A stretch of DNA of 64,000 nt from Thermoanaerobaculia bacterium (GCA_963664405.1 OY761158.1:5824001-5888000), one strand, 5' to 3'. Counted from the stretch's first letter, positions 16,038 through 30,481 are shown. Numbers and translations are program-made. The notes: generated from the letters alone by a model not told the origin.

Positions 16038-18186
16038 TCATGGTTCACTCGACTGTCTCTGGAGCTGGGCATCTCTCTTTTCGATCGCTCGCGAAATGAT
16101 GAAGGCGCGGATTGCGCTCAGGGACTCCTCGTCCAGTGAGTCGCCGAAGCCGGGCATACCCAACTCCTGCTTCGTGCCATCGTGAACGATCTCGGAGAAT
16201 TTCTTGTGGGTGTCGAGCGTCATCATTCTGAGGTCGGGCGCCGCGGCGGCGATCACCATGGGCACGCCGAGGCCGCGATGGCAGTTGGCGCAGATCTGGT
16301 GGTAGAGCGCGTTCCCGCGATCCACAGTCTCGGCCGACGCTGTGAGTGTTGGCGGTTGCGGAATCTCGGTACTGCGCAGCGGCGGCTGCGGTAGCGTCTG
16401 CGCGCCGCCGAGCTTGAACACGATCAGCTTCCCAGGCGAGTCGTACTCGGCACCGCTGCCGGCGATCGCCGCGAGATACTGGATGCCATCGATCATGTAG
16501 GTGACAGGCGCTGCAGAGAACGAGCCGTACGCGTCGAATCGCCAGAGTAGCTCACCGCTGTCGGTGTTGTAAGCCGAGAGCTGCCCTTTCCCATCTCCCT
16601 GAAAGAGTAGGCCGGTCACCGTTGCCAGGACTCCGCCGTTGAACCCGGTGGGTAGCTCCAGCTTCCAGCGCGACTCTCCGGAAAGCGGGTCGAAGGCGAT
16701 CAAGAAGCCTCTGGTCTCGGGGCGCGGTGGGGCCTTCGCTTCCAGTGCGGAGCGATAGGGGCCCAATCCCAGGCCGAGACTTAGTCCGATCTTATTGATC
16801 TCGTACTTGCCGGTCGCGACAAAGGTCTCGTCGAGCGAGTAGAAATTCGCGTAGTCGTGGTAATAGAAATACATGATGCCGCTCGCTTCGTCGAACGACA
16901 TCGGCTCCCAGTTGTGGGCGCCCGCGTTTGCGGGGAGGATCCACTGCGGGTCGGTCTCGTACACAACGTCAGGGTTCTCCACCGGTCGTCCGGTCTCCAT
17001 GTCGACGTGGGTCGCCCAGGTGATGCCCTCGGTGTAGGGGTGGGCACGCAGGAGCTCGCCGTCGGTGCGATCGATGACGTAGAAGAAGCCGTTCTTCGGT
17101 GCCTGGAGGAGTACCTTGCGCTCTACTCCGTCGACGGTCATGTCCCCGAGAGCGATAGGCATGGCAGAGCTGTAGTCCCAGTTGTCGCCAGGCACGGTCT
17201 GGTAGTACCAGTTCATTCGGCCGCTCTCGACGTCGACCGAGACGATGGCGGTCAGAAACAGATCGTCGCCGCCACCGGGCGAGCGGATCTGGCGAGGCCA
17301 GGGAGCGCCGTTGCCGACGCCGATGTAGAGGCTTCCCAGCTCCTCGTCATAGACCAGCGAGCTCCACGCGGTCCCTCCTCCGCCGTACTTCCACCACTCT
17401 CCCCCCCCAGGTCTTGGCGGCGAGCTCCATCTCCGGGTGCTCGAAAGGCTTGGAGGGGTCCCCGGGTACCAGGTAGAAGCGCCATGCCACTTCTCCGCTG
17501 TCGGCATCGTAAGCGGTGACATAGCCGCGGCGGTGGCCGCTCTCGGAGCTGCCCTGGCCGATGAAGACCTTGCCCGCTGCGGCGCGAGGTGCACCGGTGA
17601 TGTTGAAGCGACCCAGCGCGGACGGGTGATAGGTGTCGACGTCCCAGACCTCCTCGCCGGTAGCGGCATCGACCGAGATCAAGCGGCCGTCGAAAGTGGC
17701 GACGTAGACCCTACCCTTGTAAACCGCGACGCCTCGATTCGCGGCCCCACCACAGCAGGCGTATTTGATGTACTCGCGGTCGGTCTTGGGGTCGTAAGTC
17801 CAGATCTCCGCCCCGGTGCCGGCATCGAGCGCGTAAATCACGCTCCAACCGTTGGTCACGTACATGACGCCGTCGACGATGAGGGGCGTGCTTTGCATTT
17901 TGTCTCGGCCATCGCCGATGGCCTTGAACCAGGCGACGCCGAGCTCCTGCAAGCCGTCTCGGCCGATCTGGGTCAGCGTGGAGAAGCGCTGCTCTTTGTA
18001 GGTTTGCCCGTAGGTCAGCCAACTGCCGGGCTCGTCCATGGCCGCGCGCTTGATGCGCTCGTCGTCGACTCGACCGGCAGGCGGCGACTCTGTCGGCTCG
18101 GTCGAGCGCCCGACGTCCACTTCTGAGCGCCCGCCGCAGCAAACGAGGGAGAGTGCAACCAGGGCTGTGACGGCTCTTGTCGTCAA
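16038..18186 (-). pseudogene. Type II quinohemoprotein alcohol dehydrogenase (PQQ + cytochrome c), frameshifted at a G8 run (17401-17408)
   Basis: N-half has vicinal YACCGG and TGAPR; C-half has EWWKYGGGGTAW, DNWDY, GAHNW and heme motif CANCH. Removing one G restores KTWGGEWWKY. May be intact in vivo. Confidence 0.85.
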
Positions 18187-19515: not shown

Positions 19516-20586
19516 ATGCGCAGACGAATTCTGAGCTCGATCTTTGTCGTCGCCCTACTTGCTCTGACCGGAACAGCGGTCCTGGCCGCCGCGGCCGACG
19601 AGAGCTGGACGGTCTCTCGTAACGACTACGGCCATCCCGACCTCGAGGGCGTCTGGGCGAATAACAATGCAATCCCGATGGAGCGGCCCGCGGAGTGGGA
19701 GGGCAAAGACCGCCTGACCGAAGCCGAGCTCCAGGAGCTCGTCGAGGCGGCGAAGGAAGCCTCCAACCCCGGAGAGGATGCGCTCTTTGGCGACCAGTTG
19801 GTGCTCGCCGCCATCGCCAAGACGAAAGCCGAGAGCTACGATCCGGCGACCGGCAATTACAATCAGTTCTGGGTGGCCGAGCGCGACTTCTCGAACCGCA
19901 CATCTCTCGTCGTGGAGCCGCCGGACGGGAGGATCCCGCCGCTGACGGAGGCGGCGCGGCGCAAGATGTGCGCGCAGATCGAGTACGCGAGCGAGCACCC
20001 TGCCGACTCGTGGCTGGATCGGTCGCTGTCGGAGCGCTGTGTCAGCTTCGGCGTACCCTTCGTCGGAGCCGGCTACAACGGTTATTTCCAGATCTTTCAG
20101 AGCTTGGACCACGTCGTCATCGTGCAAGAGATGATCCACGACGCGCGCATCATTCCCCTCGTCGACAGGCCATCCCTCAGCGACGACATCCGCCTCTTAC
20201 ACGGCGATTCCCGGGGCCACTGGGACGGAGACACCCTGGTCGTGGAGACCAGGAATTACTCTCCCAAGAGCAGCTTCAGGGGCTCGTCGGAGAATCTACA
20301 ACTGACCGAGCGCTTCACTCGTCTCGGGCCTACGCACCTCGAGTGGGAGCTCACGATCAGCGATCCCAGCACTTGGACGGCTCCTTGGAGCATCTCGATA
20401 CCGCTCAAGGGTACCGACGAGGCGATCTTCGAGTACGCCTGTCACGAGGGCAACTACGGCATGTCCGGCATCTTGGCCGGCCATCGCGCGCACGAGGCCC
20501 AAGGGAAGGCTCCACAACAGGCCCCGCTCAACCTCCGCTACCAGACTCTCGGTTGTGAAGAGACGCCCTCCGCGGGCGCCGACTAG
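19516..20586 (+). CDS. Secreted hypothetical protein (YACHEGN family), copy 2
   Basis: RBS AGGAGGAGG; signal peptide; PDLEGVW, RTSLVVEPPDGRIPPLT, GDSRGHWDGDTLVVET, FEYACHEGNY. Confidence 0.82.
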   Translation: MRRRILSSIFVVALLALTGTAVLAAAADESWTVSRNDYGHPDLEGVWANNNAIPMERPAEWEGKDRLTEAELQELVEAAKEASNPGEDALFGDQLVLAAIAKTKAESYDPATGNYNQFWVAERDFSNRTSLVVEPPDGRIPPLTEAARRKMCAQIEYASEHPADSWLDRSLSERCVSFGVPFVGAGYNGYFQIFQSLDHVVIVQEMIHDARIIPLVDRPSLSDDIRLLHGDSRGHWDGDTLVVETRNYSPKSSFRGSSENLQLTERFTRLGPTHLEWELTISDPSTWTAPWSISIPLKGTDEAIFEYACHEGNYGMSGILAGHRAHEAQGKAPQQAPLNLRYQTLGCEETPSAGAD

Positions 20587-22265: not shown

Positions 22266-22301
22266 TCGAGGCTCCTTCGCGGAAGGTGCGGGAAGGTGCG
22301 A

Positions 22302-23456
22302 TTATGCACGAACGGAGGGGCCAGTGCTCCCGTCCGATGTATCTCCGTCACGCGGGATCTTCCGCCTCTCTGATCGTGCCTCGGCGAGCAATCGTTTCGC
22401 CCGAATCTCTTCTCCCTCGGGATTCGACCGTTCTGCCTGCCGCAGATACTCCAGGGCCTTATCGGGCTGCCCTTTGATCAGCCAGATCGTGCCCAGGAGG
22501 CCCCATGCGTACTCGCCGAAGAGTCGGCGGTCATAGCCGAGATCGCGCGGCCGATCGGGATCGCCTCGATCGATCAGATCCTCGAGGTATCGGCAGGCTA
22601 TATCCCAACGGCTTTCAGCGACTCTTTGGCGAGCCGCCCACCAAAGGATCAGGGGATCGCTAGGGTGCCGTTCCAGGGCCTCGTCGACCAACGCGGCGGC
22701 GTCCATCAGCTCGGTGTCGTCGGAGAAGTGCAGGGCGAGCAGGTCAGAGTAGGCGAGCGCGTCACCGGGTGATGGCTCGCCGGCTCGCACCACTGCTAGA
22801 CCTTGTCGAAAGGCGATCTCTGCCGCCGCGGCGTCGCCCAGTGCCAGCTCCGCTTCACCCAGGGCATGCCACAGATAAGGTCGCTCGGGGTCGCTCTTGA
22901 TGGCTTTTCTCAGCAGAGGAAGGTTACGAACGTGCTTCGCGGTGAGATCTCCCTCATAGCCGAGGTGCTCGATGAATATCGGCGCGTCGATGATGCGAGC
23001 GGATTCTTCGCGCACGATTCGGTGAACATCTGGGAGCACCGTCTCGTGGATTGCTCCCCTGAAGCGCAGGTCGGCGCGATTTCTGAACAGGCGATATTCG
23101 AGATAGGGAGTCAGGCCGCTTGCGGCTCGAAATCCGACCCGCGCCGCGACGATGCCGGGATCCTCGAGGGCTTGCCTCAGATCTCCTTGAAGATCGATTC
23201 GCTCGTCGGCGTCAATGTAGAGAATCCACTCTGTGCCCGCGGCGTCGAGACCCGTGTTTCGAGCCTGAGAGAAGTCGTCACGCCAAGGCTGTTGGAGCAC
23301 TGTGGCCCCGAACGAACGGCAGATCTCTACGCTCGAGTCCTGGGAGCCGGTGTCGACGACTACGACTTCATCGACGATGTCTTGCAGAGCACCGAGGCAG
23401 GCAGGGAGGTGTCGGGCCTCGTCGCGGACGATCAGTGCAGCAGCGATCCCGGCCAA
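22302..23456 (-). CDS. GT2 glycosyltransferase with C-terminal TPR repeats (SunS-like architecture)
   Basis: IVRDEARHL, VVVDTGSQDSS, WRDDFSQARN, WILYIDADE, RLFRN...FRGAIHE, HLGY, then TPR-like helices. Confidence 0.88.
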   Translation of the reverse strand: MAGIAAALIVRDEARHLPACLGALQDIVDEVVVVDTGSQDSSVEICRSFGATVLQQPWRDDFSQARNTGLDAAGTEWILYIDADERIDLQGDLRQALEDPGIVAARVGFRAASGLTPYLEYRLFRNRADLRFRGAIHETVLPDVHRIVREESARIIDAPIFIEHLGYEGDLTAKHVRNLPLLRKAIKSDPERPYLWHALGEAELALGDAAAAEIAFRQGLAVVRAGEPSPGDALAYSDLLALHFSDDTELMDAAALVDEALERHPSDPLILWWAARQRVAESRWDIACRYLEDLIDRGDPDRPRDLGYDRRLFGEYAWGLLGTIWLIKGQPDKALEYLRQAERSNPEGEEIRAKRLLAEARSERRKIPRDGDTSDGSTGPSVRA

Positions 23457-23463
23457 GGCGGCT

Positions 23464-23631
23464 CTACGCTGGGATCGAAGAATTCGACTGCGCCGCGGCA
23501 GGGCGGCTCATCAGACCCGCCATCGTGAAGCTTGCGACGACAGGAGCTACGAAGCTTGTCGATGCGGCCTTACGAATGAAGTCACGGCGCGATTCGTCGA
23601 ACTCTTTGAGGATCTCGTCGTTCTTTGGCAT
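23464..23631 (-). CDS. 55-aa putative precursor peptide MPKNDEILKEFDESRRDFIRKAASTSFVAPVVASFTMAGLMSRPAAAQSNSSIPA (not in ORF track)
   Basis: ATG at 23631 with GGAG 8 nt upstream; TAG at 23464-23466; fills the gap between kinase and GT2 in the same orientation; SRRDFIRK twin-Arg-like motif, hydrophobic stretch, AAA site. Confidence 0.8.
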   Translation of the reverse strand: MPKNDEILKEFDESRRDFIRKAASTSFVAPVVASFTMAGLMSRPAAAQSNSSIPA

Positions 23632-23670
23632 CAGCTGAGCTCCGGGTTGCAGGTTCTCGATGGAACTATT

Positions 23671-24540
23671 CTAGCGCAAGAAGGTGTCCTGTTCCCAGGC
23701 CTTCAGGATGGGACTGTAGCTCTCGTGGGCGACCTCTTCGAGGTGAGCGACCCCGTCCTTGGGCTCTCCGAGCTTCAACCTGTGGCCTCCGTACCGGCTC
23801 AGACGGGTCGCTGCCGCGACCAGCGTCGACGGGGACTGAACCCAACCCAGCGAGCTTTCGACCAGGCTCCGGAGCGTTTCGAAGATCGGAAGGCGCTGAC
23901 TCTCGGTCGCGCCATCATGATTGGCTTCGAGGACGATGACTCCGTCTATGGGATGCGGAGAGATGACCCACTCGAAGCCGGCTTCACCCGGGTCGAAACC
24001 CACGACTCTTTGACCGACTGTCGAAGCGATGGGCTGGTCCGCCAACAAGGGGGCGATTTCCGGGACCAGGCTTTCGATACCTGTCTTGAGATGCAGTCGG
24101 CGGGGTACAGCCAAGACCTGGCTGTCGCGCTCGAGCACCATCTCATCGCCCTCGATGGTGTAGCCGCTGTAGAGGAGGGCCGTAGCCAGTGTCGTTTTGC
24201 CTACTCCCTTCTCTCCTAACAGCAAGAGTCTTGCGCCGCGGATGTTGACGAGGGCGCCGTGGAACACCGACCACCCGGCGAGCGAGTATCGCTCGAGCAC
24301 GCGGCTGTGAAGTCGGAGGTAGATCGTCCACAAGACATCGTCGACCTGGTGTAGGACATCGACGAGATCGCCGTCCTCCCGCACCAGCCAAGGCCCTTCG
24401 CCTTCGACTTGATAGCGCATCACCTTCCGAACTTCGACATCCTGCCGCGCGCTCGTCGGCAAGTAGTTGAGGCGCTCGGCCAGGTTCGGGTCGTCGACCT
24501 CCAGCTCGACCCGCACACTGAGGAGTTGAAAGGAGGTCAC
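23671..24540 (-). CDS. HprK-related kinase (P-loop)
   Basis: FHGALVNIRG...LLGEKGVGKTTLA...IEGDEMV; GTG start overlaps the stop of the PqqD-family gene (GTGA). Confidence 0.85.
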   Translation of the reverse strand: MTSFQLLSVRVELEVDDPNLAERLNYLPTSARQDVEVRKVMRYQVEGEGPWLVREDGDLVDVLHQVDDVLWTIYLRLHSRVLERYSLAGWSVFHGALVNIRGARLLLLGEKGVGKTTLATALLYSGYTIEGDEMVLERDSQVLAVPRRLHLKTGIESLVPEIAPLLADQPIASTVGQRVVGFDPGEAGFEWVISPHPIDGVIVLEANHDGATESQRLPIFETLRSLVESSLGWVQSPSTLVAAATRLSRYGGHRLKLGEPKDGVAHLEEVAHESYSPILKAWEQDTFLR

Positions 24541-24839
24541 TCGCTGCCGGTGTCGATCTGTCGCACCACACCCTCGCGTAACAGCAGATCCAGGCCGTCT
24601 TCGAGGGTGCTGAGTGGCGAAGCGTCAAGGGAGAATAGCTCGGTGACGATTCGGCCCATCTCCTCGAGACTGCGAGAACCGTCGCAGAGCTCGAAGAGAA
24701 CCGCTGCTGTCGCATTCAAGTGATGAATGCGATCGGTCCGGGGGTCGAAGACCACCATCCCCTCCTCGGCCTCGTGAGCCTCGAGACCGGGGATTCGCTC
24801 GAATGTTCTGGCGTCACTCAATTTGCGAGAGGCTATCAT
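24537..24839 (-). CDS. PqqD-family / RiPP recognition element (RRE) protein
   Basis: 100 aa; MVVFDPRTDRIHHLNATAAVLFELCDGSRSLEEM...LLREGVV has the PqqD pattern; ATGA overlap with the upstream GT4. Confidence 0.9.
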   Translation of the reverse strand: MIASRKLSDARTFERIPGLEAHEAEEGMVVFDPRTDRIHHLNATAAVLFELCDGSRSLEEMGRIVTELFSLDASPLSTLEDGLDLLLREGVVRQIDTGSE

Positions 24840-26103
24840 CGAGATCGGAGCCGTGAGGCCAGTGCGCTCCGGGTCCAGTCGGCGATTGAGCGAGAGACTT
24901 GCTCTACTTGGTAGCGCTCCTCGACTGCTCTTCGAGCGTTGCGAACGAGCCGGGCCGAGAGCTCCGGGTCTTTCAGAACACGAACCGCTGCCTGGGCCAG
25001 ATCGTCGTTCGAAGAGGCGAGCAGGAGATCGGTGTCGTTGCGCAGATCCAGGCCAGCGGCGGCTAATGGCGTCGCCACCACCGGCACTGCATTCGCAGCC
25101 GCCTCCAGGATCTTGAGGCGGCTTCCACCGCCAGCACGGAGGGGCACGACAGCTACGTCGGCTTGCCGGTACTGTGGGCTGAGATCGTTCACGGCTCCGG
25201 TCGACTGGACCCCAGGCAAGCGAGAAAGCTGGTCCAGAGCTTCCTTTCGTCCGCCCCCGACGAGCGTCAGGTCCGCGCTTGCAATTCGCTCCCTAGTGCG
25301 CGGCAGAATCTCGCACGCGAGCCGCTGCGCCGCGTCGAGGTTCGGGAGGTAGCCGAAGTTGCCGACGTAGAGCAGTCGTTTACCGCCGACGCTTCTAGCC
25401 TCTCTGGGCGGGCATCGAACTGCGTTCGGCAATACCGCGACCTTCTCGATGAGGCAAGACCGTGCCAGTGATCTGGAGTCGGATTCGGCTGCTGCCGCAA
25501 CACCGTCGAAGAGTGGCGAGCAGACCGCGCCGAAGCGGCGAAAACTCTCTGCTTCAGCTAGACACTTGAACGACGAGGTGTGCTCATTGCGAAGTTGGTG
25601 GAGGGCGGCGATCGACTCCAGGGTGGCGACGTCGTCTTCGTCCGCGTCGAGCAGCAGGCAGGGTCGCGATTCAGACTCTGCGAAGGGTAGAGCGGCCCCA
25701 GCCATATACAGGCGCAAGATCACGACGACATCGAAGCTCTCCTCAAAAACATGCTGCGAAGCCGGTGGCCGAGAGCCGGCGATGCTTGCCTGGCCCTTTC
25801 TGGCAGTGCCCGAGAGGCTCTTACGATGCTTCGACCGAGTCCGCTCTGCAACCAGCCGACCGCGGACTCATGCGGCCCAAGAAGCGGTACGACTTCGACG
25901 CGGTCGCAGTGCTGTGAAGCCCACTCCGAATTACCGATCTCGGCTTCCGGGTCAGACACAGGTAGCACGGCGACGCTCAGCGCTCCGACTTGCGCGAGTC
26001 CCTCCACCGCGAGGGCGGCCCGCATCGCCAGGCCATTGCCCGTTGGCGACGGGATGATCGGCGAGATCAGCAGAAGGCGGGTGGCCCCCGATGCTAAGCT
26101 CAA
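24836..26103 (-). pseudogene. GT4 glycosyltransferase split by a frameshift at an A5 run (25745-25749)
   Basis: N-part RLLLISPIIPSPTGNGLAMR; C-part FDVVVILRLY, LLYVGNFGYLPNLDA, PLRAGGGSRLKILEA. One extra T restores the frame. Start uncertain (TTG 26103). Confidence 0.8.
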
Positions 26104-26114
26104 CGCGCTCTCCG

Positions 26115-26974
26115 ATGCCCGGTATCCCCCGCATTGCGCACTTTGTTTTCGGGCTGCGTCAGCAGCACGAGCCCTTTCATCCGCTCCACTTTTTGGCATT
26201 GGAGACCTGTCGCCGGGTGCTTCAGCCCGATGCCATCTACCTCCACTACCATTGGCTTCCTTTCGGGGCGCTGTGGGACACCATCCGGCCGCATCTCACC
26301 CTGGTGCGTGTTGATCGGGTCGAGGCTGTCGACCGCGCAACCTACGACGATCGGCTGGTGCCGGAAGAATACCGTTATGCGCACCACGCAGACTTTTTGC
26401 GCCTCGATGCTCTGATCGAGCACGGAGGTATTTACGCCGATATCGATACGCTTTTTTTGCGACCGCTTCCCGAGTCGCTGTGGCGCCAGCCCTTCGTGAT
26501 CGGCCGCGAGCCTGACGTGGTCGATGAGCACACCGGCGAAAGGCGTGCGTCACTCTGCAATGCGCTTCTGATGTCGAGGCCGCCGCCGACTTCGCTCGAG
26601 CCTGGCGAGAGGAGATGGCGTCGGAGCTGGATGGCTCTTGGAGCAACCACTCTGGATTTCTCGCCCAGCGCTTGAGCGAGGAGCGGCCGCAGTCTGTCCA
26701 CGTAGAGCCGGAGGAGTCGTTCTTTCCTGTGCCCTCGACGCCCGCGGGACTGGCCTCGCTGTTCTCCGTAGAGCCGCTCTCCATAGGGTCCAGCTACTCC
26801 ATCCACCTCTGGGAGCACTTGTGGTGGCGGCACGAGCGGACGGACTTTTCTCAGCACCACGGTGATGAGATCACCTTCGCTTTCCTGCGCCGGTCGACGA
26901 CGGCGCTGGCTCGTTTGGCGAGGCCTTGCTTGCCCGAGCTCGACGTCGACGACTTGATCCGGCGCACCCCGTGA
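26115..26974 (+). pseudogene. DXD-motif (GT32/Gly_transf_sug-like) glycosyltransferase split by a frameshift near 26583
   Basis: IPRIAHFVFG, AHHADFLRLDALIEHGGIYADID, LCNALLMS; continues in another frame as ADFARAW...WSNHS...SYSIHLWEHLWW. Confidence 0.8.
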
Positions 26975-29403
26975 GCTCGGCGGGACGAGGAATCCGCTGG
27001 GTGTCCCTGATGCCCGGTTGTGGGTACGGTGATGCGGCAGCGCTATACCTCTCTGGTCTCGACCGGCTCGGAGTTCCCATCAGCTGGACACCGATCTCAC
27101 GCGGGCTCGAGACTGTCGGCGCGAGAGATCGCCTGCCGGGATCGAGCCCTGTTGTCGACGAACGCATGGTGGATCTGTGGCAGAAGCCGATAGTGGCGGA
27201 CACTCTAGTGATCGACGTTCCTCCCCCGAAGCTCCACAAGCACTGGCTTGCGAAATACCCCGATCTGACGCCCTACGCATACGTAGCCTGGGAGATGGAC
27301 CGGCTCCCTCGCGGATGGGCCCGGGTTCTCAATCGCTTCGAGAGCATCTTTGTTCCGTCGGAGTTCAACCGCAGCGTGATGAGAGAGTGTGGGATCGATC
27401 GCCCGATCGACGTCATCCCGCACATCGCCCGACGGGTCGAGCCGGTGGCGACACCGAGACTGCTCAGCACTCTCGCCGATGATGACTTCGTCTTCTACAC
27501 GATTGGAACGTGGACCGATCGCAAGGCGATGGCGGAAACAGTACGGGCTTACCTGGAGACGTTTCGTGGCGACGAGCGTGTCGTTCTGGTGGTCAAGACC
27601 GATTCGGTCGACAGGACTCAGCGGAGTGGATCGAGTGTCTGGCGGCGTAACAGCTCTGCGTCTCGGTCGAGGATGGTCTGGTGGACGCTGGCGCGGCTCC
27701 TGGCCGAGTATCCGGGGGCCGGCAGAGTGCATCTCGTCGCGGGGGAAGTGAGCCCTCGCACCATCGACGGGATCCACAGCCGAGGCGATTGCTTTTTGTC
27801 CCTCACCCGCAGCGAAGGGTGGGGCCTGGGTCCTTTCGAGGCCCTGCTGTTCGGCAATCCGGCAATTGTGACGGGTTGGGGCGGGCAGATGGACTACCTG
27901 GGTTCGGACTATCCTCTCGCGCTTCGCTATCAGCTCGAGGATGCGCCGGCCGACGAGTACGATCGAGGAGTCCCTGCGCCGCGTTGGGCGCGAGCCGATC
28001 GCGGGCACGCCGGCGAGCTGCTGCGATGGGTCTTCGAGCATCGAGCCGAGGCTCGAGCTGATGCTGACTCCCTGCGCCGGTCGCTGTCGACGACCTATTC
28101 GGCCGATGCCGTCTGTCGGGAGCTCGCTCGGGGACTGGGCTTTCCGACAGGGACACTCACCGATGGCAACCCGCCAATCTCGTGGGATCGATACCAACCC
28201 GTCTCTGTCGACGCTGCTGTCGATGACTTGATGGATGCCTGCAGTAAGTATCTCGCGGGCGAAAGGGCCAAGGTGACCCGCGTTTGGAAAGGCGATCCAA
28301 AGCGCATCGCCGAGTTGGCGTCGGCTCATCGCCTACAGCCCTTGTTGAGCTCGCTGGTGCGGAGCGGGCGGCTGGAGCAGAATCTCCCACAGGATCTGCT
28401 CGACGACTGGTTCGGCGCCTACTGTTTGACGGCGTTGCGAAACGGCCGCTTGTTGCAGGTGCTTGGCGAGCTCACCGCGCGCTGCCACGCCGCGGGTCTT
28501 CGACCCCTCGCCCTGAAGGGGCCGGTAGACATCGCTCGCGGCTACCGCGACCCGGGGCTTCGTCCCATGGTCGATCTCGATATTCTCTGCCGGGCCCTCG
28601 AAGTGGAGCCCGTGCTCGGTCATTGCTACGATCTCGGGTTTCGCTACAAACGTCAGACAACTCCCTTTCATGTCGAGCTTTGCCATCCCGACAACGACGC
28701 CACAGTAGAAGTCCATTTCGACCTCTGGGAAGAGGTCGCGAATCGAGAGCGTTTTCTCGAGGAGCTGTGGCGCGACGCCGAAAGTTGCGAGGTCGCCGGT
28801 GTTTGTTTCGAGGCCCCATCGGCCGCGTGCTCCCTAGTTCTCGGCGTCGCGCACCTTGTGCATCACGACTTCCTGATCGGCATGAAGCCCATCCTCGATT
28901 TCGCCCTCCTGCTCACCAAGAGCCCTGCAACGGATGGAGACCGTGTCCTCTCCATGGCTAGACTCGGTGATCTCCACAAAGAGTTAGGCAGTCTCAGTAG
29001 GGCGCTCATTCGGGACCTCGCCTGGAGCTCCACAGAGCCGCCCTGGCTCGAGTCGGGCTTGATCGCCGGCGAAGAGGGCCTCGACCGGACCCTTGCCATC
29101 CAACTCCTTGCTCACTGGCGCCGGCTGCCCGAGTGGGCTGGCCCCGGCGCCTTCGACGAGATCGCGACCCGGCCCGGTCTCGTCGGCAAGCTCGGCTTCG
29201 CGCGCCGTGTACTTTTACCGCCACCAAGAGAGTTCCGACTTGCTTCGAGAGAGAGAGGTGCCGCGGGCGCTCGTCTCAAGCACGTCGCGGCGGCGGTGGC
29301 GGCTGTGGTAGACGCAGCGTTGCATCGCAGCTGGCGCGCGCGTAGGCGGGGCGGCTCACTGAAGCGCGAGCTTCATCATCGCCGGGCCGCCAGGCGAGAG
29401 TGA
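26971..29403 (+). CDS. GT4 glycosyltransferase fused to a nucleotidyltransferase (NTP_transf_5-like) domain
   Basis: GTG overlapping the upstream TGA; N-half GYG, WEMDRLP, VPSEFN, RKA, RSEGWGLGPFEA; C-half LALKGP...YRDPGLRPMVDLDILC...VEVHFDL. Confidence 0.85.
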   Translation: MSSAGRGIRWVSLMPGCGYGDAAALYLSGLDRLGVPISWTPISRGLETVGARDRLPGSSPVVDERMVDLWQKPIVADTLVIDVPPPKLHKHWLAKYPDLTPYAYVAWEMDRLPRGWARVLNRFESIFVPSEFNRSVMRECGIDRPIDVIPHIARRVEPVATPRLLSTLADDDFVFYTIGTWTDRKAMAETVRAYLETFRGDERVVLVVKTDSVDRTQRSGSSVWRRNSSASRSRMVWWTLARLLAEYPGAGRVHLVAGEVSPRTIDGIHSRGDCFLSLTRSEGWGLGPFEALLFGNPAIVTGWGGQMDYLGSDYPLALRYQLEDAPADEYDRGVPAPRWARADRGHAGELLRWVFEHRAEARADADSLRRSLSTTYSADAVCRELARGLGFPTGTLTDGNPPISWDRYQPVSVDAAVDDLMDACSKYLAGERAKVTRVWKGDPKRIAELASAHRLQPLLSSLVRSGRLEQNLPQDLLDDWFGAYCLTALRNGRLLQVLGELTARCHAAGLRPLALKGPVDIARGYRDPGLRPMVDLDILCRALEVEPVLGHCYDLGFRYKRQTTPFHVELCHPDNDATVEVHFDLWEEVANRERFLEELWRDAESCEVAGVCFEAPSAACSLVLGVAHLVHHDFLIGMKPILDFALLLTKSPATDGDRVLSMARLGDLHKELGSLSRALIRDLAWSSTEPPWLESGLIAGEEGLDRTLAIQLLAHWRRLPEWAGPGAFDEIATRPGLVGKLGFARRVLLPPPREFRLASRERGAAGARLKHVAAAVAAVVDAALHRSWRARRRGGSLKRELHHRRAARRE

Positions 29404-29410
29404 CAGATCG

Positions 29411-30481
29411 CTACCGGCCCGAGTCAGGAGTGGCTCGCACTTGATTCTCTTCGAAACGGGCGCCACGCAGAGTGTTGCCCATAGAGTAGTTTCCTTCGTG
29501 GCATGCGTACTCGTACATCTTGTCTGGAGTCGCCGGCCAGCTGTATTCGCCGCTGTAGGGCGTCTCGTAGTCGCCGTTTTCGAGCGTGAACTGGTACAAC
29601 AGCGTGTCCTCGTCGGTGAGGGTCAAGCGCTCGACGACGCGCTGATCGCGAGGTGGGGAGGGCTCGCCGAAGAGAGTGGTGGCCAGCCACTCTTCTTCGA
29701 GAAAGTTTGTGGTTTCGACGACCAAAGTGTCGCCCTCCCACCAGCCGATCGAGTCTCCGCCTCGCGAAAGCAGCCCCGGCGGTCTGTGCTCGGGCTTGGC
29801 CGATGGAGTGCCCAAGCGAATGATCCGCGCCTCGTGCATCCACTCGACCAGGATCATGACGTAGCTCTCCGTTTGCATGATGGTCTTGATGTTGTTGTAG
29901 TTCTTGGGCAGCACCGGGATCGTCGCCTCTAGCGAAAAGATGCAGCGATCGGCGATCGACAGCGACTCGGGCCCGTCATAAGGGCCGACTTCGCGGTCGA
30001 GCCACCAAGCCGTACCGGTGTTTTTCTTGGAGAAGGGATAGAGACCGCCTCTGCGCTCTCGGCCCCTCTCGGTGAGTGGCGGAAAGCGACCGTTGGGTGG
30101 ATCGGTGATGAGAGAGGTCCGGAACCTGCCATCTACGGCAACGGCCTGGGTGCCTCGGTCCATGTAGAAGTCGTTGTAGGCGCCTATGCTGCCACCAGCG
30201 GGGGGTGCCTGGCGATTCGGATCGCTGGCTTTCGCACGCTGCGCGCTCCTGGTGGCTGCGCTCTGCTGGATCTCCTCAGCCTCGGCTGGCGTCAGGAAGA
30301 GTCGATTCCCGTACTCGGGAAGCCTCTGCATCGGTGTCAGGGTGCCGATGTCGTAATTTCCCGAGAGGTTGGGTCTGCCCTGGAGCGTTCTCGGGATGTC
30401 GCCTGCCGATGCAATCTCGAGCGGGCAGATTACGAACATGAATACGAAACCAAGTAGCCAGCGAGTTGCGCTGTCGTTCAT
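29411..30481 (-). CDS. Secreted hypothetical protein (YACHEGN family), copy 3
   Basis: PNLSGNYD, RTSLITDPPNGRFPPLT, GDSIGWWEGDTLVVETTNF, YEYACHEGNY; closest to 6357-7478. Confidence 0.82.
   Translation of the reverse strand: MNDSATRWLLGFVFMFVICPLEIASAGDIPRTLQGRPNLSGNYDIGTLTPMQRLPEYGNRLFLTPAEAEEIQQSAATRSAQRAKASDPNRQAPPAGGSIGAYNDFYMDRGTQAVAVDGRFRTSLITDPPNGRFPPLTERGRERRGGLYPFSKKNTGTAWWLDREVGPYDGPESLSIADRCIFSLEATIPVLPKNYNNIKTIMQTESYVMILVEWMHEARIIRLGTPSAKPEHRPPGLLSRGGDSIGWWEGDTLVVETTNFLEEEWLATTLFGEPSPPRDQRVVERLTLTDEDTLLYQFTLENGDYETPYSGEYSWPATPDKMYEYACHEGNYSMGNTLRGARFEENQVRATPDSGR

What the first reader, a model, noticed from the sequence alone, without database searches (positions are those of the whole stretch)
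22302..29403. Candidate new RiPP-like system: RRE, HprK-like kinase, four glycosyltransferase domains and a nucleotidyltransferase around a Tat-like micro-peptide
Seen: minus-strand operon GT4 > PqqD/RRE > HprK-like kinase (ATGA and GTGA overlaps) > 55-aa peptide > GT2-TPR, back to back with DXD-GT > GT4-nucleotidyltransferase. No asparagine-synthetase-like cyclase, transglutaminase-like B2 protease, radical SAM, YcaO, LanM or peptidase-transporter is in the locus. Known: RREs bind RiPP leaders; HprK-like kinases phosphorylate a Ser in paeninodin-type lasso peptides; kinase plus nucleotidyltransferase yield glycosylated pseudomycoidin; SunS is a GT2-TPR peptide glycosyltransferase. Inference: these tailoring enzymes act here without a class-defining cyclase, producing a linear phospho-glycopeptide or a peptide-primed glycan. 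I cannot confirm novelty; PqqD/HprK-related/nucleotidyltransferase cassettes are known near polysaccharide loci.
Basis: partly seen in the sequence, partly recalled or inferred. Interest (0 to 1): 0.9.

Follow-up and report, generated by a model that had tools for sequence, protein, structure and literature searches.

The report
Export-signal peptide with dedicated glycosylation enzymes
A tiny conserved gene encodes a peptide that is nearly all export signal plus a short Ser/Asn tail, and the neighbouring enzymes probably add sugar and phosphate to that tail before export, a variant of a peptide-modification system first described in 2026.

Summary
The locus encodes GT4, PqqD/RRE, an HprK/PEPCK-fold kinase, a 55-aa ORF and GT2-TPR on the minus strand. 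It is back to back with a DXD-GT and a GT4-like/NTP_transf_5 fusion. No lasso cyclase or B2 protease was found in the locus. In this genome the GT4 and the DXD-GT are each split by a frameshift.

The small ORF is a real gene. Homologues lie directly upstream of the orthologous GT2-TPR in 18 of 25 metagenome loci, and in none of 24 loci with a more distant GT2. A profile of the ORF finds 1083 protein clusters.

The leader combines a near-perfect Tat consensus (S-R-R-x-F-L-K/R) with a lasso/LPP-type F/YxxPxV docking motif and an AxA site. Tails centre on S-N-x-S/T, and sequons are enriched about twofold. The conserved core is PqqD + peptide + GT2-TPR, whose nearest solved relatives are GmaR and SunS. 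Kinase and NTP_transf_5 are accessories.

Best reading: leader-guided cytoplasmic glycosylation and phosphorylation, then signal-peptide export. This would be a non-Bacillota cousin of the linear polyphosphorylated peptides (Popov 2026). It has no dedicated peptidase or exporter, and a glycosyltransferase is the constant enzyme. No chemistry is shown. This scan has noted similar Tat-leader cassettes on other DNA.

The parts
23464..23631 (-). Precursor peptide gene, 55 aa. It has an acidic N-region, S-R-R-D-F-I-R-K (Tat consensus), F-V-A-P-V-V-A-S-F-T-M (F/YxxPxV docking-type motif inside the hydrophobic region), A-A-A then Q-S-N-S-S-I-P-A. GGAG lies 9 nt upstream of the ATG.
   Evidence: Orthologues. 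Profile hits. Motif counts.
22302..23456 (-). GT2-TPR glycosyltransferase, the enzyme most constantly linked to the peptide. No signal peptide or membrane segment is evident by eye in its sequence.
   Evidence: Pfam and NCBIfam. PDB profile search: GmaR 5.6e-36, SunS about 1e-25. Orthologues are 40-53% identical. Adjacency counts.
23671..24540 (-). HprK/PEPCK-fold P-loop kinase (Walker A GEKGVGKT), an accessory enzyme.
   Evidence: AF2 pLDDT 92. Foldseek hits PEPCK at about 1e-7 and HprK/P 1kkl_B at 7e-7.
24537..24839 (-). Discrete PqqD-family RRE (peptide-binding adapter).
   Evidence: PF05402 33 bits. The profile hits the lasso RRE TfuB1 (6jx3_B) at 4e-5. Complex prediction with the peptide gives weak support.
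24836..26199 (-). GT4 glycosyltransferase, read in two frames here (25720-26199 and 24836-25723). The frame change is near 25750.
   Evidence: An environmental near-identical contig has one extra base behind 25750 that gives one frame.
26091..26974 (+). DXD-motif glycosyltransferase (Gly_transf_sug plus Gb3_synth-like tail), read in two frames here (26091-26675 and 26615-26974). The frame change is near 26570-26575.
   Evidence: It is a single 331-aa ORF in G008.
26926..29403 (+). Fusion of a weak GT4-like N-terminal domain with NTP_transf_5 (the PsmN/LppN-type nucleotidyltransferase family). The start codon is uncertain.
   Evidence: PF14907 128 bits at residues 457-688. It is 53% identical to the G008 orthologue. 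These are separate genes in other loci.

Best explanation
The 55-aa gene encodes the substrate of the surrounding enzymes. Its first ~47 residues do two jobs at once.

- They act as a RiPP-type leader. An aromatic-x-x-Pro-x-Val motif is bound by the discrete PqqD/RRE protein.
- They act as a twin-arginine-type signal peptide ending in Ala-x-Ala.

Proposed steps:
1. In the cytoplasm the RRE holds the leader.
2. The GmaR/SunS-like GT2-TPR enzyme glycosylates the short tail at the conserved S-N-x-S/T motif, on Asn or on the neighbouring Ser/Thr.
3. Where present, the HprK-like kinase phosphorylates a tail Ser. This parallels Ser3 of the AQSN core start in LPP.
4. The NTP_transf_5 enzyme and the extra glycosyltransferases then extend the decoration. 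The precedent is PsmK/PsmN making phospho-hexose.
5. The modified product leaves through the general Tat (or Sec) route and signal peptidase I. This would explain why no dedicated peptidase or exporter is in the loci.

Shown here: the gene is conserved, its linkage to PqqD and GT2-TPR, the motifs and the folds.

Inferred: binding, the modified residue, the kind of sugar, the order of steps and export.

In this genome the pathway may be partly disabled, because two accessory glycosyltransferase genes are frameshifted.
For: **Conservation.** The peptide is 69% identical between the window and G008. The kinase is 49-50% identical and GT2-TPR 53%. The same gene order is seen in G008, L035 and L059.

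**Linkage.** Of 29 metagenome loci whose GT2-TPR match is at least 35% identical and reaches the TPR part, 25 have at least 250 nt upstream.
- 18 of the 25 carry the peptide directly upstream, and 20 carry it somewhere.
- 17 carry PqqD and 8 carry a kinase.
- Of 24 loci under 35% identity with the same upstream room, none has a peptide, a PqqD or a kinase.

**Tandem copies.** There are 3-5 peptide genes with varying tails in L047, L050, L052 and L061.

**Family size.** 1083 cluster representatives at E<=1e-3 and 125 at <=1e-10, out of 1.84 billion proteins.

**Motifs in the best 150.**
- RR 129, KR 19.
- F two residues after RR in 104.
- L/V/I then K/R, K/R.
- F (133) or Y (16) three residues before an invariant Pro.

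**Tails.**
- Asn in 131 of 149.
- 127 N-x-S/T sequons against 55.3 +/- 6.6 in 500 shuffles (maximum 76).

**Export.** Longer members carry PEP-CTERM, He_PIG, DUF11, Hint or Peptidase_S74 parts and have no other signal peptide. An exosortase sits in the PEP-CTERM locus L058. TatC is present in the genome. The nearest named ESM Atlas clusters are Tat-signal proteins, at scores 0.87-0.90, which are leads only.

**Enzymes.** GT2-TPR is nearest to GmaR and SunS. PqqD is nearest to TfuB1.

**Complex of PqqD and peptide: weak support.**
- ipSAE 0.55; best of 3 controls 0.02.
- The runs agree in at least 95% of contacts; partner pLDDT is 65-66.
- The mark was reached by 116 of 157 solved complexes and by 2 of 215 mismatched pairs.
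- At 0.60 or under it was reached by only 18 of the 157, and by both mismatches that passed.
- RRE-leader complexes are solved, so the pass may come from likeness.

**Precedents read.**
- PMC13381572, sections 6, 7 and 12: RRE, HprK kinase and NTP transferase act on linear peptides. Ser3 of the AQSNWK core is polyphosphorylated. The leader motif is [Y/W]xxP.
- PMC6993621, passages: PsmK phosphorylates the C-terminal Ser, and PsmN is needed for +162 Da hexoses.
Against: - No modification, binding or export has been measured.
- The peptide was not found in 7 of 25 orthologous GT2-TPR loci by the profile. By eye, 3 of these hold a cut or divergent candidate and 4 hold none.
- The kinase and NTP_transf_5 are missing from several loci, so phosphorylation is not general.
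- Tat-signal models score at or under their cut-offs. TIGR01409 gives 15.5 for the G008 peptide and 17.6 for P0028 against a cut-off of 16.7. Pfam TAT_signal gives 17.1 against 22.7.
- A hydrophobic region this conserved is unusual for a signal peptide.
- G048 and P0144 have His in place of the Asn, and L057 has no Asn in its tail.
- 57 of 149 tails have no sequon.
- The complex score is only a weak pass.
- The window's GT4 and DXD-GT are frameshifted. The same sequence appears in contigs of 3 runs from 2 studies.
Confidence: 0.6

Rival explanations
1. The N-terminal region is only a RiPP leader and recognition sequence, and its likeness to a Tat signal is incidental. On this view the peptide is cut and exported by a peptidase and pump encoded elsewhere, as LppS and LppD do in Bacillota, or it stays in the cell.
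For: The hydrophobic stretch is far more conserved than ordinary signal peptides and holds the F/YxxPxV motif that lasso and LPP RREs bind (PMC13381572, sections 6 and 12). Tat HMMs score only at or below their cut-offs.
Against: S-R-R-x-F-L-K/R is kept in nearly all of 150 members: R at the second Arg position in 148 and F at +2 in 104. An AxA-type site follows. Members with PEP-CTERM, Ig-like, DUF11, Hint and S74 parts need an N-terminal export signal and have no other. No peptidase or transporter recurs in the 10 larger loci whose ORFs were scanned.
Confidence: 0.17
2. The peptide is not a released product. It stays in the membrane as a signal-anchor, and its tail serves as a primer or carrier on which the glycosyltransferases build a glycan.
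For: Many glycosyltransferases of several families cluster in the loci: GT4, GT2, DXD, Mannosyl_trans3, Anp1 and Stealth. Some members end in membrane-anchoring sorting signals. LPP loci sit in capsule loci (PMC13381572, section 6).
Against: The AxA site is well conserved, which argues for cleavage. Tandem genes with varied tails look like product diversity. No polymerase or flippase recurs.
Confidence: 0.1
3. The enzymes act on LPS, EPS or other proteins, and the small ORF is an unrelated neighbour.
For: The GT4 gives a sub-threshold match to a PEP-CTERM/XrtA-system glycosyltransferase (TIGR03087, 122 bits against a cut-off of 316.65). PqqD/HprK-like/NTP_transf_5 cassettes are known beside polysaccharide loci (NCBIfam names; PMC13381572, section 6).
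Against: The peptide is tightly adjacent to GT2-TPR across phyla and absent beside more distant GT2s. A PqqD-family peptide binder is present. GT2-TPR's nearest solved relatives modify proteins and peptides.
Confidence: 0.06

Closest known systems
Linear polyphosphorylated peptides (LPP; lppA-K-B-S-D-N of Paenibacillus alginolyticus), Popov et al., Nat Commun 2026, PMC13381572 (sections 6, 7 and 12 read)
   Same: [quoted passage not shown]
- Precursors have a conserved N-terminus and variable C-terminus (35-200 aa there, 54-429 aa here).
- The leader has an aromatic-x-x-Pro motif.
- The LPP core starts A-Q-S-N with Ser3 phosphorylated. The window reads A-A-A-Q-S-N-S-S.
- Both sit among glycosyltransferase genes.
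- Distribution is patchy.
   Different: - No SpI-like leader peptidase and no MsbA-like exporter is in the loci.
- The leader carries a Tat consensus and an AxA site instead.
- F replaces Y/W in 133 of 150 members, and the rest of the LPP motif is not seen.
- The constant enzyme is GT2-TPR, and the kinase and NTP transferase are optional.
- It is found in an Acidobacteriota-related genome, a Syntrophobacteraceae MAG and many metagenomes, while the paper calls LPP restricted to Bacillota.
Phosphorylated and phosphoglycosylated lasso peptides (paeninodin; pseudomycoidin PsmK/PsmN), PMC6993621 (passages read)
   Same: The HprK-type kinase plus NTP_transf-type enzyme pair. The PqqD is nearest to lasso B1 RREs.
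   Different: No Asn-synthetase-like cyclase is in the locus. No B2 protease is in the genome. The peptide has no ring-forming core.
Glycocin and protein glycosyltransferases of the GT2-TPR type: SunS and ThuS (7msp, 7msn, 7msk) and GmaR of Listeria (22ao)
   Same: An N-terminal GT2 domain followed by a helical/TPR domain. These are the nearest solved relatives. They are cytoplasmic enzymes that glycosylate a ribosomal peptide or protein.
   Different: - The SunS family model scores 70.7 against a cut-off of 350.
- The window peptide has no Cys and no helix-loop-helix disulfide core.
- An RRE is present here.
- There is no C39-peptidase ABC exporter.
- The target motif is S-N-x-S/T.
HPr-rel-A system of NCBIfam (TIGR04352 kinase A, TIGR04353 PqqD chaperone)
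   Same: A PqqD-family chaperone paired with an HprK-related kinase.
   Different: Scores are far below the cut-offs: 26.1 against 200, and 21.1 against 35. A closer but IS21-disrupted cassette lies elsewhere in the same genome.
Cytoplasmic N-glycosyltransferases (HMW1C/NGT, GT41). This comparison is recalled and rests on no call.
   Same: Cytoplasmic glycosylation of N-x-S/T sequons on proteins that are then secreted.
   Different: A different glycosyltransferase family and fold. No RRE and no leader. Asn as the acceptor is only a hypothesis here.

Membership tests
LPP (linear polyphosphorylated peptides) | Discrete RRE, HprK-like kinase and NTP transferase in one cluster, without a macrolactam cyclase | tested here: met
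LPP (linear polyphosphorylated peptides) | SpI-like (SipW-type) leader peptidase LppS and MsbA-like exporter LppD in the cluster | tested here: not met
   Neither a peptidase nor an ABC exporter is among the window's 9 locus ORFs. None recurs in the 130 ORFs of 10 related loci.
LPP (linear polyphosphorylated peptides) | Leader motif YxxPxVLxHQxIxFETxxS | tested here: not met
   Only the F/YxxPx[V/I] part is shared. It is followed by A-S-F-S-M and preceded by a Tat consensus.
LPP (linear polyphosphorylated peptides) | Polyphosphorylation of a Ser at the start of the core | not testable with these tools
   The sequence parallel is A-Q-S-N in both (PMC13381572, section 7).
Lasso peptides | Asn-synthetase-like cyclase and transglutaminase-like B2 protease | tested here: not met
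   The 5 PF00733 matches are all 1.4 Mb or more from the locus. PF13471 has 0 matches in the genome.
Glycocins (SunS-family S/O-glycosyltransferase systems) | Membership of TIGR04195 | tested here: not met
   70.7 bits against a cut-off of 350. The fold-level relatives are GmaR and SunS.
Glycocins (SunS-family S/O-glycosyltransferase systems) | Cys-containing disulfide-stapled core | tested here: not met
   There is no Cys in the 55-aa peptide.
HPr-rel-A system (NCBIfam) | Kinase over the TIGR04352 cut-off and PqqD over the TIGR04353 cut-off | tested here: not met
   26.1 against 200, and 21.1 against 35.
PqqD-family RRE | PF05402 over the gathering score, with likeness to solved RREs | tested here: met
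   33 bits against 23.4. TfuB1 at 4e-5.
Twin-arginine signal peptide | S/T-R-R-x-F-L-K motif, a moderately hydrophobic region, an AxA site and Tat machinery in the genome | tested here: met
   for the motifs. TatC at 232.7 bits.
Twin-arginine signal peptide | Score over the curated Tat-signal models | tested here: inconclusive
   TIGR01409 gives 15.5 (G008 peptide) and 17.6 (P0028) against a cut-off of 16.7. PF10518 gives 17.1 against 22.7.
Twin-arginine signal peptide | Tat-dependent export | not testable with these tools
   Needs a reporter or tat mutant experiment.

The most novel reading that the evidence does not exclude
This is a widespread, unnamed pathway in which one N-terminal module is both a Tat signal and a RiPP leader.

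- An RRE-guided GT2-TPR enzyme acts as a new kind of cytoplasmic N-glycosyltransferase on Asn of S-N-x-S/T.
- Substrates run from 6-8-residue micro-peptides to PEP-CTERM and Ig-domain surface proteins.
- The finished glyco- or phosphoglyco-product crosses the membrane through Tat already decorated.

That would be a third route of bacterial N-glycosylation, and the first RiPP class defined by a glycosyltransferase plus a Tat leader.
Probability: 0.25. Interest if true: 0.88.

Novelty: new variant of a known kind. Interest (0 to 1): 0.7.

Why it matters
If the reading holds, a signal peptide can serve at the same time as the address for peptide-modifying enzymes. The general export machinery would then replace the dedicated protease and pump of classical RiPP clusters.

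It would extend the 2026 LPP discovery beyond Bacillota. It would put a GmaR/SunS-type glycosyltransferase at the centre of an RRE-dependent pathway. It would also make a family of over a thousand unannotated small proteins testable.

The sequon-like S-N-x-S/T cores point to a possible new cytoplasmic glycosylation chemistry and to short secreted glycopeptides of unknown role, which might be signals, matrix components or metal or surface modifiers. Gene callers miss many of these genes: the G008 copy was not in the 5.8-billion-protein set.

Tried and rejected
- **Word-index protein search with the peptide.** It found only the peptide itself. The 69%-identical G008 copy was not in that collection, so the blank says nothing about rarity.
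- **Genome-contig scan with the kinase.** 80 stretches matched a pattern and only 2 encode a relative. The patterns were narrow.
- **Kinase protein against 41 related genomes.** 24 have a match at E<=1e-3, but apart from G008 these cover only part of the query around the P-loop, so that tally was not used.
- **RNA evidence.** No RNA holder is listed.
- **X8 coverage.** X8 has no contig over the DXD-GT frameshift, so it cannot be said whether that one varies in nature.
- **Lasso reading.** Rejected: no cyclase in the locus and no B2 in the genome.
- **Glycocin membership and HPr-rel-A membership.** Rejected on model scores.
- **Literature.** I found no paper describing a Tat-type leader with PqqD and GT2-TPR. 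This rests on the searches and on passages of PMC12710340. Subscription-only papers and supplements were not seen. Supplementary Data 1-2 of PMC13381572 were not opened and might list non-Bacillota relatives.
- **Second structure job and a GT2-TPR-peptide complex.** Not run. The single complex job went to PqqD and the peptide.

Full report
**What is there**

The window lies at 5.824-5.888 Mb of a single-contig 6.78-Mb genome with about 63% G+C. A genome of the same family is titled an Acidobacteriota MAG.

On the minus strand:
- a GT4 (Glyco_trans_1_4, 82.5 bits);
- a 100-aa PqqD (PF05402, 33 bits, over its cut-off);
- a 289-aa P-loop protein with sub-threshold HprK matches;
- a 55-aa ORF;
- a 384-aa GT2 with TPRs.

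On the plus strand:
- a DXD-type glycosyltransferase;
- an 825-aa protein with NTP_transf_5 (128 bits) behind a weak GT4-like part.

An AF2 model of the P-loop protein (pLDDT 92) matches PEP carboxykinases (E about 1e-7) and HprK/P (1kkl_B, 7e-7). "HprK-like kinase" therefore holds at fold level.

There is no lasso machinery. The five Asn_synthase matches of the genome lie 1.4 Mb or more away. The B2-protease family PF13471 has no match in the genome.

**A flaw in this copy**

The GT4 and the DXD-GT are each read in two frames in the window. They are single ORFs of 430 and 331 aa in the orthologous locus of genome G008.

Contigs of three runs from two studies are identical to the window over 22300-27000. 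A contig of a marine-sediment run from a third study has one extra base behind 25750, which gives the GT4 one frame. The GT4 break is therefore a difference from an environmental allele. It is either a real lesion or a reproducible sequencing error. The DXD-GT break near 26570-26575 was not covered by that run.

**The small ORF is a gene**

The peptide has a GGAG 9 nt before its ATG.

G008, the only genome among 40 relatives with a full-length kinase match (50% identity), has the whole locus in the same order. It has a 54-aa ORF in the same place that is 69% identical, against 49-50% for the kinase and 53% for GT2-TPR.

Two more distant loci have it too:
- G048, of the same phylum (kinase 35% identical);
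- a Syntrophobacteraceae MAG (kinase 26% identical), where the ORF has a strong AAGGAGG site.

In both, the ORF sits right before the GT2-TPR gene.

**Linkage in metagenomes**

A scan with the GT2-TPR alignment kept the best 80 of 564 relatives. A profile of the peptide was run over all six-frame ORFs, tblastn was run with the locus proteins, and the results were counted.

| GT2-TPR match | Loci | With >=250 nt upstream | Peptide directly upstream | Peptide anywhere | PqqD | Kinase |
|---|---|---|---|---|---|---|
| >=35% identical, reaches the TPR part | 29 | 25 | 18 | 20 | 17 | 8 |
| >=35% identical, partial match | 24 | 24 | 10 | 10 | 5 | 1 |
| <35% identical | 27 | 24 | 0 | 0 | 0 | 0 |

Of the 7 full-length loci without an adjacent profile hit, inspection by eye showed:
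- L036, a cut-off C-terminal piece of a longer precursor;
- L040, a Peptidase_S74-like piece;
- L046, a divergent candidate;
- L043 and L061, which have the peptide elsewhere in the locus;
- L042 and L053, which have nothing.

In L045, L049, L051, L054, L062, L067 and L077 the PqqD gene abuts the peptide gene with no kinase between them. The constant set is therefore PqqD + peptide + GT2-TPR.

Kinase and NTP_transf_5 occur together in the window, G008, L028, L035, L037, L050, L057 and L061.

Several loci carry 3-5 tandem peptide genes with the same leader and different tails.

No peptidase, pump or Tat gene recurs among the 130 ORFs of the 10 larger loci scanned. The PEP-CTERM locus L058 holds an exosortase.

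**The family**

A profile of 27 peptides finds 1083 cluster representatives at E<=1e-3, 125 at <=1e-10 and none at <=1e-30, among 1.84 billion proteins. The match is at the N-terminus in most of the 150 listed (start residue 1-13 in 144), and lengths run from 54 to 429 aa.

No Pfam or NCBIfam model covers the leader. Only Tat-signal models score, at or under their cut-offs. The nearest ESM Atlas clusters are unnamed hypothetical proteins.

The family is rare in the phylum sample. The peptide profile hit 2 of 401 genomes and the kinase profile 5 of 401 (one strong besides the window's own). The own genome has one copy.

**The leader (best 150)**

- [S]-R-R-x-F-L-[KR]-[KR]: RR 129, KR 19; R at the second position in 148; F in 104.
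- Some seven residues further on, [F 133 / Y 16]-x-x-P-x-[V/I]-A-S-F-S-M.
- An Ala-x-Ala-like site follows.

The first part is the textbook Tat consensus. The second has the form of the [Y/W]xxPx[L/V/I/F/A] motif that discrete lasso and LPP RREs bind (PMC13381572, sections 6 and 12).

The PqqD profile's best solved relative is the lasso RRE TfuB1 (4e-5).

A complex prediction of PqqD with the peptide gave weak support.
- ipSAE was 0.55, and the best of 3 controls was 0.02.
- The runs agreed in at least 95% of contacts, and partner pLDDT was 65-66.
- The mark was reached by 116 of 157 solved complexes and 2 of 215 mismatches.
- At 0.60 or under it was reached by only 18 of the 157, and by both passing mismatches.
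- Similar RRE-leader complexes are solved, so likeness may explain the pass.

**The tails**

- An Asn lies in 131 of 149 tails.
- The residue before the first Asn is most often Ser (43 of 132).
- N-x-S/T sequons number 127 against 55.3 +/- 6.6 in shuffles (maximum 76 of 500), and 92 of 149 tails have at least one.
- Some tails repeat the unit: P-N-Q-T/S seven times in L074, E-P-N-Q-G/C about fifteen times in L100, and G-S-N-M four times in L039.
- The window has Q-S-N-S-S-I-P-A after A-A-A.
- Exceptions exist: His for Asn in G048 and P0144, and no Asn in the tail of L057.

Longer members end in PEP-CTERM, an IPTL/XrtH-like anchor, He_PIG, DUF11, Hint or Peptidase_S74 parts. These are parts of exported or self-processing proteins, and the shared leader is their only N-terminal signal.

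**How it most likely works**

GT2-TPR's nearest solved relatives are GmaR, the Listeria flagellin O-GlcNAc transferase (5.6e-36), and the peptide S-glycosyltransferases SunS and ThuS (about 1e-25). A peptide or protein acceptor is therefore the natural expectation.

I propose this sequence:
1. PqqD binds the F/YxxPxV part of the leader.
2. GT2-TPR glycosylates the S-N-x-S/T core.
3. Where present, the kinase phosphorylates a core Ser.
4. NTP_transf_5 and further glycosyltransferases extend the decoration.
5. The product then uses the general Tat or Sec route and signal peptidase I.

Two published precedents bear on steps 3 and 4.
- In LPP, LppK polyphosphorylates Ser3 of a core that begins A-Q-S-N-W-K, and the leader is removed by a signal-peptidase-I-like enzyme (PMC13381572, section 7).
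- In pseudomycoidin, PsmK phosphorylates the C-terminal Ser, and the NTP-transferase PsmN is needed for one or two hexoses on the phosphate (PMC6993621, passages).

In L039 a Stealth-family protein stands next to the peptide gene where no kinase was found. Stealth proteins are recalled to be hexose-1-phosphate transferases, which would give the same kind of linkage. That is inference.

Everything from binding onward is inferred. Only conservation, linkage, motifs and folds are shown.

**Comparison and novelty**

This locus fails LPP membership on the dedicated peptidase, the exporter and most of the leader motif. It also fails lasso, glycocin (SunS model 70.7 against 350) and HPr-rel-A (26.1 against 200; 21.1 against 35) membership.

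Three things differ from LPP:
- the Tat-type leader;
- the RRE-linked GT2-TPR as the constant enzyme;
- the sequon-like cores, on substrates from micro-peptides to surface proteins.

My searches found no paper on this.

This scan has noted similar Tat-leader/RRE cassettes on other genomes. One of those notes led me to the LPP paper, which I then read.

I class this as a new variant of a known kind.

Noticed in passing
G000:C1:1545200-1553000 (own genome, outside the window; L122 4211-11458): A second PqqD / HprK-related-kinase-A-like cassette: TIGR04352 at 78 bits (under the 200 cut-off), and a 97-aa PqqD. NTP_transf_5 matches lie on both sides of an IS21 element (IstA/IstB), so it looks disrupted. 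The peptide profile finds no copy there.
   Followed up: partly
window 16038-18186 (-): A PQQ-dependent dehydrogenase-like gene seems split into two overlapping frames (17347-18186 and 16038-17669, the latter with a nonsense-looking N-terminus). This is another apparent frameshift within 6 kb of the locus. It hints at frequent indels in this assembly, or at gene decay.
   Followed up: no
L047:5047-5658 (+), and P0101: The leader plus an S-N-L-P-P core is fused directly to a Hint/intein-type domain that starts with Cys. TIGR01445 gives 21.1 bits, under its cut-off. P0101 matches Hom_end_hint at 42.7 bits. A self-cleaving domain could release the short modified peptide.
   Followed up: partly
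L065:9-416 (+); partial ORFs upstream of GT2-TPR in L040 and L056; P0026: The leader and core are followed by a Peptidase_S74-type intramolecular-chaperone autoprocessing domain (P0026: PF13884 at 23 bits, over the 22 cut-off). This is another self-releasing form.
   Followed up: partly
L039:1769-2620 (+): A Stealth CR2/CR4 protein lies directly upstream of the peptide gene in a locus where no kinase was found. It may be an alternative way to make a phospho-sugar linkage.
   Followed up: no
window 19516-20586 (+) and 29411-30481 (-): Two 356-aa paralogous ORFs with signal-like N-termini and a shared C-terminal E-Y-A-C-H-E-G-N-Y motif flank the region. Their family was not looked up.
   Followed up: no
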